This document shows, in pieces, positions 33,001 to 36,614 of a stretch of DNA of 64,000 nt. Location: the NCBI RefSeq assembly GCF_048403405.1, contig NZ_CP183129.1; one strand, written 5' to 3'. The position numbers are program-made. The stretch is from Escherichia coli (GTDB lineage Bacteria; Pseudomonadota; Gammaproteobacteria; Enterobacterales; Enterobacteriaceae). Numbering within the stretch: the first letter of the stretch is position 1; each line of letters opens with the position of its first letter.

Positions 33001-36000
33001 GTGCGGCATAACTGGTTCAGTCCATACACCTTCTTCTTCGTTTAGTACGTGAATAGCACTATCAAGACGTGATGCCTTAGGCCAATACTTGCTTGCACGC
33101 TTCACGACCGTCTTTCGCGCCATCTCATTCCAGTGATTTACCCATGGTCCTTTATCGCTGAATGCCGCCTTGCTTGTTTTCCTTACAGCCTCAATTTCAG
33201 CAAGACTCATCTCTTCCGTTAGATAATCACCTGCCGGCGTCTTAACTGTGCAGTAAACGCCAACGATATCACCACGATCACCGAAGGCGTTGTATTTATG
33301 GGTTGGTGCTTTATCAAGCCCGTTTGACTCATAGGTATCGTTAGCATGAACAAGTTTTGCCTGACCCCATGAGATAACACCAGACTCCATTGCAATATGG
33401 AGCAATCCCATATAGCTGATATCAAGGCAAACCATGCCGTCGCGCGGAACCAGATAAGCCAGTTTGCTGGCCGGGTTTAAGGTGATGCCGATCGCCGCAA
33501 CATTGATGATGGCGTTCTGTGCGCTGGTTGGATTTGCCAGTGCTGTTTTAGCCAGGTAATCATTTTTCTGGAAATACTGAATTGCAAACTGGCTTTCCTT
33601 AGCCCATGTCACCGTCTGTTCAGTCAATGCTCCGCAGAATAACTGCTCCTGCTGTTTAACGAATTCAACGATATTGCTCATGCAGCTTCTCCATAAATAT
33701 GTCTGCGTTTGAATATTGCGAAGGCATATTCAGCCTTAACTCTTTCGGTTATTGCATCCCAGAACCATTCAGCGGCTTTTTCCTGATAGTTACAGTCATC
33801 ATCTTCCAGCCAGTCGATAGCGTCCTTAGTGTGTTCATCTGGTTTATATGAGCGAAGCATTTCGCTTATTGGGTCGCAACGTTTGCAGAGGCGATCAACT
33901 TCACTGTTGATTCGTTCGTAATCTTCATCAGTAAAACTTGCGATTATTTGCGATATTTCACGCTTATCATTCAGAGTCAGAATCATCATCTTTCTCCTGT
34001 TCTTTGTGCTGATTGAGCATTTTGTTCATCTGACGAATGAATTCTTCGTCTGACCAGTTATCTGTAAAACTCATGGACGGCCTTGTTGTTTCAAAATATC
34101 CCAAAGCTTTTCGAGCAAACTTTTCATTCTTGGTTGTTTAAAGTCTGCTCCGGTTAAAATGTTTTTTCGTGAATGCTGCACCGATAAAATTGGGTTGAAA
34201 GGGCGAACCGATGCCGCCCCTGCAATAGCGAACTGTTGCATAGGATGCTCCTTCTGTTTGATTGCATAACGAAAACGCCTCGAGTGAAGCGTTATTGGTA
34301 TGCGGTAAAGCCGCGCTCAGGCGGCTTTGATAGTCATATCATCTGAATCAAATATTCCTGATGTATCGATATCGGTAATTCTTATTCCTTCACTACCATC
34401 CATTGGAGGCCATCCTTCCTGACCATTTCCATCATTCCAGTCGAACTCACACACAACACCATATGCATTTAAGTCGCTTGAAATTGCTATAAGCAGAGCA
34501 TGTTGCGCCAGCATGATTAATACAGCATTTAATACAGAGCCGTGTTTATTGAGTCGGTATTCAGAGTCTGACCAGAAATTATTAATCTGGTGAAGTTTTT
34601 CCTCTGTCATTACGTCATGGTCGATTTCAATTTCTATTGATGCTTTCCAGTCGTAATCAATGATGTATTTTTTGATGTTTGACATCTATTCATATCCTCA
34701 TAGATAAAAAATTGCCCTCACATTGGAGGGCAAAGAAGATTTCCAATAATCAGAACAAGTCGGATCCTGTTTAGTTACGAGCGACATTGCTCCGTGTATT
34801 CACTCGTTGGAATGAATACACAGTGCAGTGTTTATTCTGTTGTTTATGCCAAAAATAAAGGCCACCATCAGGCAGCCTTGTTGTTCAGTTTACCAAGTTC
34901 TCTGGCAATCATTGCCGTCGTTCGTATTGCCCATTTATCGACATATTTCCCATCTTCCATTACAGGAAACATTTCTTCAGGCTTAACCATGCATTCCGAT
35001 TGCAGCTTGCATCCATTGCATCGCTTGAATTGTCCACACCATTGATTTTTATCAATAGTCGTAGTCATACGGATAGTCCTGGTATTGTTCCATCACATCC
35101 TGCGGATGCTCTTCGAACTCTTCAAATTCTTCTTCCATATATCACCTCAAATAAGTGGTTTGCTGCCTAATTTCATTTTCTGGCTACCAACACAAGTCAC
35201 ACCCATTTCACTACGTGGCTTGCTGTACCATGTGCGCTGATTCTTGCGATCAATACGTTGCAGGTTGCTTTCAATCTGTTCGTGGTATTCAGCCAGCACT
35301 GTAAGGTCTATAGGATTCAGTGCGCTTTCTACTCGTGATTTCGGTTTGCGATTCAGCGAGAGAATAGGGCGGTTAACTGGTTTTGCGCTTACCCCAACCA
35401 ACAGGGGATTTGCTGCTTTCCATTTAGCCTGTTTCTCTGCGCGACGTTCGCGGCGGCGTGTTTGTGCATCCATCTGGATTCTCCTGTCAGTTAGCTTTGG
35501 TGATTGGATGGCCGGCGCTGAACCCCGGCTTACTGGTTAGAGCGCCCGCACTACCAGTGACGCTGTCTTGAGGCGCAGATTGGTTACTGCTTGCCATGAG
35601 CGCTGTTTATACATTGGTCGAGCATCAGCCTGCTCATTCATCCAATCCCAAAGCCTTCTGCTTTGAATGCTGCCCTTCTTCAGGGCTTAATTTTTAAGAG
35701 CCTCACCTTCATGGTGGTCAGTGCGTCCTGCTGATGTGCTTAGTATCACCGCCAGTGGTATTTATGTCAACACCGCCAGAGATAATTTATCACCGTAGAT
35801 GGTTATTTGTATGTTTTTTATATAGATTTATTTTTTGCAGGGTTGTGTGGATTGGGAAGGTGATCGAGAGATCTGAATTGCGATGTTTAGTGAGTTGTAT
35901 CTATTAATTTTGAAATAAATACAATTGGTTATGCGTTTTTTGGGGGGGCGTTAGGCAAAGAAAACCCGGCGCTGAGGCCGGGTTATGTAGGCATTATGCG

Positions 36001-36614
36001 GCTTTTTTGGTGTGTGCTGACGAGCGAGCCAGAATCTCGTTGATGAGAGATCTCAGGGTCATTGCATCTTTGTGCAGAGTGGACATGGTTTTCATTGCGT
36101 TTCCTCGGTTTATTTTATGGTACTAGCCTAGTTCAAATAGACTATATGAAATCTTGATTTACTATTAAGGCCATTGGGTTGGTGGAAGATCGTGGGTTTT
36201 TATCTGCGTATTTGCTTCCACACATTTATCATAGTCTAATTTCTCTACAGCAAGCAATAGTGATTCAGCATACATCAATCCTTGTTTGATGTTCATAACA
36301 TTTATGCTTGCACTTGCGGCATCCATATCCTTTGCTGTCTCTACCATGTGCTCAAAGCTTTGAGCAATAGAGTCAACACCGTTTTTCATCCTTGTAAACA
36401 CTAATTTTAGCTCATCAAGGCTTGGATTCGTTAGATCATACATCCCATGCATTCCATGGGCTTCGAATAACTCTGACAACGATCTAAGGGCGAAGTTCAC
36501 AGAATCAATAACTTGGTCGTACTTTTTCTTATCAAGATCATTCATTAAAAATATAACCTTTTAACTAATTGATATTGCTGCATTTATATCAATATATGCA
36601 TTTCACATATATCA

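What the first reader, a model, noticed from the sequence alone, without database searches (positions are those of the whole stretch)
35994..36545. Unknown gene pair in the rexA/rexB position after cI
Lambda carries the rexAB exclusion system immediately after cI, co-transcribed with it. Here that slot holds an unrelated 126-aa protein (36165-36545) and a possible 33-aa ORF (35994-36095), followed by a terminator and then pL. Genes in this slot are expressed in the lysogen and are classic superinfection-exclusion or abortive-infection candidates.
Basis: partly seen in the sequence, partly recalled or inferred. Interest (0 to 1): 0.65.

Follow-up and report, generated by a model that had tools for sequence, protein, structure and literature searches.

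The report
Conserved two-gene cassette replacing lambda rexAB
In this lambda-immunity prophage the rexA-rexB exclusion genes are exactly replaced by a small mobile two-gene cassette of unknown function (a 126-aa helical protein plus a 33-aa mini-protein with a degradation-tag-like tail) that also occurs on tiny plasmids, which makes it a good untested candidate for a toxin-antitoxin-like or phage-defence module.

Summary
Window 35987-36610 (624 bp) replaces lambda rexB-rexA exactly, from the cI stop codon to the tImm terminator. Both ORFs are real genes. The 126-aa protein (PHROG 16322; no Pfam, NCBIfam or PADLOC match) has relatives down to 28% identity. In all 15 lineages examined it is followed 0-84 nt downstream by a 33-54-aa ORF with a Shine-Dalgarno site, then a terminator. 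Synonymous sites are saturated while protein sequences are conserved.

The mini-protein is a basic amphipathic helix that always ends in x-(K/R)-(A/V)-A. This resembles the C-terminal Ala-Ala and MuA-type signals read by E. coli ClpXP. The large protein is an acidic four-helix bundle (pLDDT 90) with no informative fold relatives. A fused, paired AlphaFold2 model suggests the mini-protein docks on it.

The cassette sits after cI-type repressors, after mnt, at prophage ends, and as the only cargo on ~3-kb Rep3/Mob plasmids. In the window it has no promoter of its own, so transcription from pRM is inferred.

My best guess (about 0.35) is a toxin-antitoxin-like guard pair with a protease-labile mini-protein. 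That function, and any exclusion phenotype, is untested.

The parts
36612..37325 (-). cI repressor, nearly identical to lambda cI; upstream gene of the inferred pRM transcript
   Evidence: ORF and translation; continuous homology to lambda from the cI stop codon onward
35987..36610 (-). The cassette: the 624-bp segment that replaces lambda 35829-37225 (rexB, rexA and the cI-rexA spacer)
   Evidence: Boundaries from pairwise alignment with NC_001416. G+C is 0.34-0.42 here against 0.47-0.49 in cI. The full 721-nt region is found in 31 of 5,426 complete E. coli genomes.
36546..36611 (-). 66-nt spacer between cI and the large gene; no promoter-like or terminator-like site; two AT-rich inverted repeats (36568-36593 and 36592-36612)
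   Evidence: The spacer is unrelated to lambda's cI-rexA spacer.
36165..36545 (-). Large gene: 126-aa acidic (pI 4.8) soluble four-helix-bundle protein, RefSeq WP_021539111.1 'hypothetical protein', PHROG 16322
   Evidence: (E 8e-89). AlphaFold2 gives pLDDT 90 and pTM 0.82, with helices 3-39, 43-71, 74-101 and 105-117. pI.
36096..36164 (-). Intergenic 69 nt. A weak promoter-like site (TTAATA-16-TATAGT, 36141-36168) overlaps the large gene's stop codon. A 7-bp hairpin is present but not significant.
   Evidence: 9 of 12 matches; z = +0.5
35994..36095 (-). Small gene: 33-aa basic (pI 10.5) amphipathic-helix mini-protein MKTMSTLHKDAMTLRSLINEILARSSAHTKKAA. Not annotated in the three RefSeq records examined.
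   Evidence: absence of annotation
35963..35984 (-). Intrinsic terminator, equal to lambda tImm (AACCCGGCCTCAGCGCCGGGTT followed by TTTCTTTG)
   Evidence: 88-96% identity to lambda and CL707, where it is annotated Timm.
35742..35804 (-). pL promoter and operators oL1 (35744-35760), oL2 (35768-35784) and oL3 (35788-35804); left neighbour of the slot
   Evidence: TTGACA-17-GATACT; sequence read; homology to lambda

Best explanation
This is a self-contained, horizontally mobile two-gene operon. Here it is slotted between the cI stop codon and tImm, so it would be made in the lysogen as the tail of the pRM (and pRE) cI transcript.

It encodes a stable, acidic, non-enzymatic four-helix-bundle protein. 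Its partner is a basic ~33-aa amphipathic helix that binds the bundle. The partner's invariant C-terminal (K/R)-(A/V)-A tail makes it a substrate of ClpXP, so it is short-lived.

The proposed mechanism is toxin-antitoxin-like. While the operon is transcribed and translated, the mini-protein is continually replaced and keeps the bundle protein inert. When synthesis stops, the mini-protein is degraded. Synthesis could stop through loss of a plasmid or through host shut-off by an infecting phage. The freed bundle protein then binds a cellular target and arrests the cell. The result is plasmid addiction or abortive infection.

Shown: the anatomy, the obligate gene pairing, protein-level selection, the conserved tail and mobility across elements. 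Inferred from models: complex formation. Inferred from established knowledge only: ClpXP lability, toxicity, any phage phenotype and co-transcription with cI.
For: 1. Obligate pairing. All 15 distinct lineages with a homologue of the large gene (100% down to 28% identity) have a 33-54-aa ORF downstream with a Shine-Dalgarno site, followed by a terminator. In L050 the two ORFs overlap as ATGA, which indicates translational coupling.

2. Both genes are under purifying selection as proteins.

3. The mini-protein is poorly conserved overall (36% mean column identity), but its last residues are fixed as x-K/R-A/V-A with varying Ala codons. E. coli ClpXP recognises C-terminal Ala-Ala (ssrA LAA, RseA VAA) and the basic MuA tail RRKKAI (PMC5143411, PMC8138137).

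4. The fused and paired AlphaFold2 model puts the peptide helix at pLDDT 96. It raises the bundle's confidence and keeps pTM at 0.78 despite a 26-residue disordered linker. This implies a docked complex (compared).

5. The charges are complementary: pI 4.6-5.2 against 8.1-10.5.

6. The pair is the only cargo on a ~3.1-kb Rep3 + Mob_Pre plasmid. It is also on a 5.45-kb circular Rep3/MobC plasmid and next to RepL. These are typical homes of addiction or Abi modules.

7. In prophages it sits in lysogen-expressed accessory slots. It follows lambda-type cI at 100%, 85% and 37% identity and follows three different repressors in E. coli. It also follows mnt, lies at a prophage end and lies beside a dinI-like moron.

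8. The cI-N slot is known to hold Abi genes (PMC8585504, PMC11077077).
Against: 1. No similarity to any toxin, antitoxin or defence family was found. Fold searches return only generic helical bundles.

2. The large protein has no conserved catalytic-type residues. Its invariant positions are G31, G34, P41, N85 and L96.

3. The mini-protein has no recognisable DNA-binding domain for the autoregulation typical of type II antitoxins.

4. Gene order is 'toxin first', and in several loci a terminator-like hairpin lies between the genes. That would lower rather than raise synthesis of the putative antitoxin.

5. A module that fires when pRM is shut off would also fire during the prophage's own induction. 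The exception would be if the weak promoter-like site before the small gene keeps it expressed.

6. No coordinates or PAE were available, so docking is read from confidence values only.

7. Toxicity, lability and any phage phenotype are untested.
Confidence: 0.35

Rival explanations
1. A non-suicidal two-subunit complex. The bundle and the mini-protein together bind and block a component of an incoming phage or a host factor it needs. This would give exclusion without cell death, or change host physiology to the lysogen's benefit. The conserved tail would be a binding motif rather than a degron.
For: There is obligate pairing and predicted docking. There are no catalytic residues. The pair sits in lysogen-expressed slots.
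Against: Occurrence as sole cargo on ~3-kb plasmids is more typical of addiction modules, though Abi and exclusion genes also ride small plasmids. The strict conservation of a terminal Ala-Ala fits a protease signal better than a generic interface.
Confidence: 0.2
2. A protease-directed function. The mini-protein is a decoy, competitor or adaptor for ClpXP. It would replace the known RexB activity of inhibiting ClpX/ClpA-dependent degradation of lambda O and of antitoxins such as Phd and MazE. The bundle protein would buffer or deliver it.
For: The tail is ClpX-signal-like and invariant (PMC5143411, PMC8138137). RexB, the gene it replaces, is reported to inhibit ClpX and ClpA proteolysis (PMC11077077).
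Against: A single-copy gene at the end of the pRM transcript is unlikely to saturate ClpXP. Nothing explains the need for a conserved 126-aa partner. This is pure analogy.
Confidence: 0.1
3. A modulator of the lysis-lysogeny switch or of prophage induction, as shown for RexA and for the 434 Hex protein encoded after the 434 repressor.
For: The cassette sits immediately after the repressor in at least five repressor contexts. It neighbours SOS-linked genes (umuDC, a dinI-like gene) elsewhere. Precedents are in PMC11077077 and PMC3564112.
Against: The same pair occurs on tiny plasmids and in a phage head-tail gene cluster with no repressor nearby. The linkage to repressors in E. coli is largely explained by co-transfer with the last 25-40 nt of lambda cI.
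Confidence: 0.08
4. An anti-defence (for example anti-restriction) pair that helps plasmids and phages establish in new hosts.
For: It is shared by phages and mobilisable plasmids. The large protein is small, acidic and helical.
Against: A position behind the maintenance repressor and behind mnt implies expression in the established lysogen, not at entry. There is no similarity to known anti-defence proteins.
Confidence: 0.07

Closest known systems
Lambda RexA/RexB abortive-infection system
   Same: It occupies the identical genomic slot (cI stop codon to tImm). It has two genes on the same strand as cI, so it is presumably transcribed from pRM in the lysogen. There may also be a second promoter before the distal gene, as with lambda's promoter for rexB.
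   Different: There is no sequence or fold relationship. RexA is a 279-aa DNA-binding protein and RexB a four-pass membrane protein, whereas both proteins here are small, soluble and helical. This pair also lives on plasmids.
BstA (prophage BTP1) and other genes of the cI-N mosaic hotspot (CL707 orf04; from my own knowledge also 933W stk)
   Same: These are accessory genes placed directly downstream of the prophage repressor and ended by their own terminator. The slot is known for lysogen-expressed abortive infection (PMC8585504).
   Different: The proteins are unrelated. BstA is a single large protein with a DNA-based self-immunity element. No phenotype is known here.
Type II toxin-antitoxin modules with a ClpXP-labile antitoxin (e.g. 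P1 Phd/Doc), and toxin-first modules (HigBA, HicAB, MqsRA)
   Same: It is a two-gene operon on plasmids and prophages. It pairs a stable ~126-aa protein with a small, predicted-labile binding partner. Translational coupling is seen in one lineage.
   Different: There is no homology. There is no Fic, HEPN or other toxin motif. The putative antitoxin is only ~33 aa and lacks a DNA-binding domain. Toxicity is not shown.
ClpX C-terminal recognition signals (ssrA ...LAA, RseA ...VAA, MuA ...RRKKAI)
   Same: The mini-protein always ends in a basic residue or residues followed by A/V-A-COOH.
   Different: The residue at position -3 is K/R/Q rather than L. Degradation has not been measured.
Phage 434 Hex
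   Same: It is a small protein encoded on the pRM message next to the repressor gene (PMC3564112).
   Different: Hex overlaps the repressor gene and acts on RecA-mediated repressor cleavage. There is no sequence relationship, and the pair here also occurs without any repressor.

Membership tests
Lambda RexAB | Homology to RexA and RexB | tested here: not met
   There are no Rex hits in PHROGs, Pfam, NCBIfam or PADLOC. DNA homology to lambda stops at the slot borders.
Lambda RexAB | One partner is a polytopic inner-membrane protein (RexB) | tested here: not met
   Both proteins are hydrophilic, with GRAVY -0.33 and -0.26. The large one is modelled as a soluble helical bundle.
Lambda RexAB | Located between cI and tImm, on the same strand as cI | tested here: met
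Type II toxin-antitoxin module | Two adjacent co-oriented genes inherited together on mobile elements | tested here: met
   15 of 15 lineages, in prophages and small plasmids
Type II toxin-antitoxin module | Direct protein-protein neutralisation complex | tested here: inconclusive
   The fused, paired AlphaFold2 model gives peptide pLDDT 96 and pTM 0.78. No coordinates or PAE were available, and there is no experiment.
Type II toxin-antitoxin module | Antitoxin is proteolytically unstable | not testable with these tools
   Only the ClpX-signal-like invariant tail is seen (PMC5143411).
Type II toxin-antitoxin module | One partner is toxic when expressed alone | not testable with these tools
   No large gene without an intact small gene was found. 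Apparent truncated large genes were start-codon calling artefacts.
Type II toxin-antitoxin module | Antitoxin carries a DNA-binding domain and autoregulates the operon | tested here: not met
   No domain is detected in the mini-protein. In the window the pair has no promoter of its own.
Type II toxin-antitoxin module | Homology to a known toxin or antitoxin superfamily | tested here: not met
Known or candidate anti-phage defence systems (PADLOC-DB 2.0) | Match to a defence-protein model | tested here: not met
   No hit for the window proteins. The Aeromonas homologue gives only a chance-level LmuB hit (E 0.007, 13 bits).
PHROG 16322 (unknown function) | Full-length match to the family profile | tested here: met
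   E 8.2e-89 over residues 1-126 of 126; the Aeromonas phage homologue gives E 3.9e-36.
ClpXP C-terminal degron | Free C-terminus ending in Ala-Ala (ssrA-like), or a basic MuA-like tail | tested here: met
   The tails seen are KKAA, RKAA, QKAA, KRAA, LKAA, AKAA and KKVA in all distinct mini-proteins. The motif definition is from PMC5143411 and PMC8138137.
ClpXP C-terminal degron | ClpXP-dependent degradation | not testable with these tools
   Needs half-life measurements in clpX and clpP mutants and in tail mutants.
Phage moron (autonomous accessory cassette) | Own promoter and terminator, deviant composition, and the same cassette at different places in different phages | tested here: met
   A terminator is always present. 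Promoter-like sites lie upstream in L026 and in the Aeromonas phage but not in the window. G+C is low. There are at least six different contexts.

The most novel reading that the evidence does not exclude
This is a previously unrecognised class of two-protein addiction or immunity module. A ~35-aa mini-protein carrying an ssrA-like Ala-Ala tail would act as a proteolytic timer that guards a non-enzymatic four-helix-bundle effector. The module would be exchangeable with rexAB in lambda's immunity operon and portable to 3-kb plasmids.
Probability: 0.3. Interest if true: 0.7.

Novelty: new variant of a known kind. Interest (0 to 1): 0.55.

Why it matters
The cI-N slot of lambdoid phages is where RexAB, the first abortive-infection system found, was discovered. 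It is now known to be a hotspot for lysogen-expressed defence genes. This cassette is a compact (624 bp), conserved and wholly uncharacterised occupant of that slot.

Its second gene is invisible to standard annotation: PGAP does not call it in the three RefSeq records examined. The second gene carries a simple, directly testable feature, the invariant Ala-Ala tail.

If the pair is a proteolysis-timed guard module, it would add a very small new toxin-antitoxin/abortive-infection family. It would also give a clean model for how mini-proteins control effectors.

If it is not, it is still a well-defined example of exact cassette exchange at the cI 3' end and at tImm.

Tried and rejected
1. Homology. 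Pfam gave only DUF7373_C (E 0.013, and 4 of 19 members at E <= 0.1) and other chance helical hits. NCBIfam and PADLOC gave nothing meaningful. A profile search of PDB sequences gave a best E of 0.008 to an unrelated enzyme segment.

3. The small gene as a non-coding RNA. Rfam gave only a sub-threshold Arrc14 hit (25 bits against a gathering score of 99, E 0.31), driven by the terminator. This was rejected because codon-level conservation shows a protein.

4. A conserved intergenic attenuator. Hairpins exist in some loci, but they are neither conserved nor significant (z from +0.6 to -1.9).

5. 'Truncated' large genes as evidence of toxin decay. These turned out to be start-codon calling artefacts.

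6. PLSDB plasmids: no homologue.

7. Isolated phages: only Aeromonas phage AsXd-1 has a homologue.

It was not repeated with a single protein because of its cost.

9. Literature searches for the RefSeq accession found nothing.
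Full report
**1. What is there**

Window 35-38 kb is the immunity region of a lambdoid prophage with lambda immunity. On the - strand lie N (35147-35473) and pL with oL1-3 (35742-35804). Next come an intrinsic terminator (35963-35984), a 33-aa ORF (35994-36095), a 126-aa ORF (36165-36545) and cI (36612-37325). cro follows on the + strand (37426-37626).

Pairwise alignment with lambda NC_001416 shows homology running up to window 35986 (= lambda 35828, the rexB-stop side of tImm). It resumes at 36611 (= lambda 37226, the cI stop codon). So 624 bp here replace the 1,397 bp that carry rexB, rexA and the cI-rexA spacer. The terminator is lambda's tImm and is annotated as such in the wild lambda-immunity phage CL707, whose slot holds a different 301-aa gene. 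The segment is AT-rich, with G+C 0.34-0.42 against 0.47-0.49 in cI.

On the coding strand no promoter-like or terminator-like site lies between cI and the large gene. The only other promoter-like site is a weak one (TTAATA-16-TATAGT, 36141-36168) just before the small gene. Transcription with cI from pRM or pRE is therefore the simplest reading. It matches what is established for rexAB (PMC11077077), but it is an inference.

**2. Both ORFs are real genes and form an obligate pair**

The 126-aa protein is RefSeq WP_021539111.1 ('hypothetical protein') and a full-length member of PHROG 16322, a family of unknown function. The family is small:
- 23 clusters at 90% identity were found by the word-indexed search, and 15 representatives at 50% identity among 1.84 billion proteins.
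- The 721-nt region occurs in 31 of 5,426 complete E. coli genomes.
- Only one of 50,697 phage records has a homologue, Aeromonas phage AsXd-1.
- None of 72,556 PLSDB plasmids has one.

A 33-aa ORF by itself is no evidence of a gene: there are 96 ORFs of >=25 aa in 7 kb here. The evidence is comparative. In every locus where a homologue of the large gene could be read, a 33-54-aa ORF follows on the same strand. That covers 15 distinct lineages from 100% down to 28% identity. The ORF starts 0-84 nt downstream, is preceded by a Shine-Dalgarno sequence and is followed by an intrinsic terminator. A sixteenth contig ends just as such an ORF starts. In L050 the two ORFs overlap as ATGA.

Among five enterobacterial copies, synonymous sites are saturated (pS 0.53-0.97). 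Non-synonymous differences are 0.25-0.40 for the small gene and 0.09-0.18 for the large one. A profile of the mini-proteins retrieves 21 further database entries of 33-78 aa. NCBI's pipeline does not annotate the small gene in any of the three RefSeq records I looked at.

**3. The proteins**

The large protein is acidic (pI 4.6-5.2 across the family) and hydrophilic. AlphaFold2 models it with high confidence (pLDDT 90, pTM 0.82) as a bundle of helices 3-39, 43-71, 74-101 and 105-117. Invariant positions are G31, G34, P41, N85 and L96; Q88, G89 and L26 are nearly invariant. These lie in the motifs G-M-x-G-M-x-x-L-T-N-P-S and N-I-K-Q-G-L. They are packing or interface-type residues, not a catalytic set.

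The mini-protein is basic (pI 8.1-10.5) and has a heptad-like hydrophobic stripe (L7, A11, L14, I18, I21/L22). It is otherwise poorly conserved, with 36% mean column identity. Its end, however, is fixed: KKAA, RKAA, QKAA, KRAA, LKAA, AKAA or KKVA, encoded with varying Ala codons. In E. coli, ClpXP recognises the last residues of ssrA (LAA), other proteins ending in two alanines, RseA(1-108) ending VAA, and the basic MuA tail RRKKAI (PMC5143411; PMC8138137, Table 1). The tail therefore looks like a ClpX signal. This is a resemblance, not a measurement.

I built a fusion of large protein, (GGGGS)6 linker and mini-protein with a paired 16-row alignment. Its model has mean pLDDT 83.7 and pTM 0.78, and the linker is disordered (<50). 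The peptide forms a helix (155-188) at pLDDT 96 over residues 161-180. The bundle's own confidence rises to 91-97 (compared). A pTM this high with 26 disordered residues implies that the peptide is placed confidently against the bundle. Coordinates and PAE were not available, so I cannot list contacts.

**4. Where the cassette lives**

It sits in the post-repressor slot of lambdoid prophages in several forms. After lambda cI in the window. After a 76%-identical cI with an 85%-identical cassette (L026). After a 61%-identical cI, plus one extra gene, with a 37%-identical cassette (L035). In each case an N-like gene follows.

In E. coli the identical protein also follows two other repressors. One is a hybrid with a different N-terminal domain (L060). 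The other is an unrelated S24 repressor (23% identity, L059). In L059, as in L026 and L034, a leftover 25-40 nt of the lambda cI 3' end precedes the cassette. So the block 'cI 3' end - cassette - tImm' moves by recombination at these two joints, consistent with the cI-N interval being a mosaic hotspot (Degnan et al. 2007, as cited in PMC8585504).

Other contexts are:
- directly after mnt in the immI region of a P22-like Pectobacterium prophage; from my own knowledge this corresponds to the sieA neighbourhood of P22;
- at the end of a Klebsiella prophage, next to umuDC and an invertase;
- in a Pantoea prophage remnant;
- after a dinI-like moron with an SOS box in HK97-like Aeromonas phages;
- after a head-completion gene in a metagenomic phage;
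- next to an integrase;
- on very small plasmids: a ~3.1-kb contig with only Rep3, the pair and Mob_Pre; a 5.45-kb circular Rep3/MobC plasmid; and beside RepL.

Outside the tight lambda slot there are promoter-like sites just upstream: TTAACC-18-TATGAT with TG in L026, and TTGATT-16-TATGAT in the Aeromonas phage. The terminator stem AACCCGG/CCGGGTT recurs in most enterobacterial and Aeromonas copies.

**5. How it most likely works**

The anatomy has four features: a stable folded protein; a tiny binding partner with a protease-signal-like tail; strict co-inheritance; and homes in prophage accessory slots and as the sole cargo of minimal plasmids. This is best explained by a toxin-antitoxin-like guard pair that gives plasmid addiction and/or abortive infection. 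I put this at about 0.35.

The weaknesses are substantial:
- There is no homology to any toxin, antitoxin or defence family.
- There are no catalytic residues.
- The mini-protein has no DNA-binding domain.
- The order is toxin first, with terminator-like hairpins between the genes in some loci.
- A module triggered by loss of pRM transcription would also fire on the prophage's own induction, unless the weak internal promoter keeps the small gene on. That would parallel what has been proposed for rexB (PMC8585504, discussion).

The rivals are:
- a non-suicidal exclusion or host-modulating complex (0.2);
- a ClpXP-directed decoy or adaptor that replaces RexB's reported anti-ClpX/ClpA activity (0.1; PMC11077077);
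- a switch or induction modulator like RexA or 434 Hex (0.08; PMC11077077, PMC3564112), weakened by the plasmid contexts;
- an anti-defence pair (0.07).

Chance ORFs are excluded.

**6. Comparison with known systems, and novelty**

It works in the same place as RexAB and BstA but is a member of neither. It resembles type II TA modules with ClpXP-labile antitoxins (Phd/Doc) in architecture only. The defining features that could be tested split as follows:
- pairing and mobility: met;
- homology and an antitoxin DNA-binding domain: not met;
- complex formation: inconclusive;
- toxicity and lability: not testable here.

I therefore rate it a new variant of a known kind: a lysogen-expressed accessory cassette or TA-like pair built from an uncharacterised protein family and an unannotated mini-protein.

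**7. Verdict**

Interest is 0.55. It is a clean, compact and experimentally tractable candidate, but nothing about its function has been shown.

Noticed in passing
window 35994-36095; L001, L059, L060: NCBI's pipeline does not annotate the conserved 33-aa gene in any of the three RefSeq E. coli records examined, although the neighbouring 126-aa gene is annotated. GenBank does annotate the 36-aa counterpart in Aeromonas phage AsXd-1.
   Followed up: yes
L026 about 4740-4870; L034 upstream of 949; L059 about 3150-3262: A leftover or duplicated 25-40 nt of the lambda cI 3' end (GTGGCCTGA(A/T)GAGACGTTTGGGTGA) precedes the cassette. This holds even where the neighbouring repressor is unrelated, which marks the cI 3' end as the recombination joint.
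   Followed up: partly
L060 3217-3912: An E. coli prophage repressor that is a hybrid: a different N-terminal DNA-binding half joined to a C-terminal half nearly identical to lambda cI (63% identity overall). It is followed by the same cassette.
   Followed up: partly
L007 about 5560-5600, compared with window 35950-35990: The Pectobacterium copy, located after mnt in a P22-like prophage, shares the terminator stem and also the downstream TTTTCTTTGCCT...GCC with lambda tImm. This suggests the terminator travels with the cassette.
   Followed up: no
window 36568-36612: Two adjacent AT-rich inverted repeats lie in the 66-nt cI-to-cassette spacer: ATTGATAT/ATATCAAT with a 10-nt gap, and ATATATG/CATATAT with a 7-nt gap. 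Their role is unknown (operator, RNA structure or chance).
   Followed up: no
L002 3340-3649 (Aeromonas phage AsXd-1): An 87-aa gene resembling DinI by eye, preceded by an SOS-box-like TACTGTATATTCAAACAGT, lies just upstream of the cassette. It looks like another moron in the same region.
   Followed up: no
P0058 (a Klebsiella genome): One copy of the mini-protein gene is read through to 78 aa after an apparent 1-nt change in the A-run before the final GCC GCA codons, so the KKAA end is lost. This may be a sequencing error or a natural tail mutant.
   Followed up: no
window 35950-36079 (- strand): A sub-threshold Rfam match to Arrc14 (Actinobacillus sRNA 14): 25 bits against a gathering score of 99, E 0.31. 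It is carried mainly by the terminator and is probably chance.
   Followed up: partly
window 44971-45126: tRNA-Asn (GTT) and tRNA-Thr (TGT) genes lie side by side inside the prophage's late region.
   Followed up: no
window 19687-27600: A 2,637-aa ORF lies on the + strand in the stretch to the left of the prophage early region. It was not examined.
   Followed up: no
window 37742-41045: To the right of cro, this phage's genes differ from those annotated in the 100%-identical-cassette strain QEC11-421 (L001), which has a CII-family protein, a 'replication protein' and replication protein P. Here there are a 93-aa ORF, a 286-aa ORF and a 626-aa ORF. So the same cI-cassette block sits in differently mosaic phages.
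   Followed up: partly
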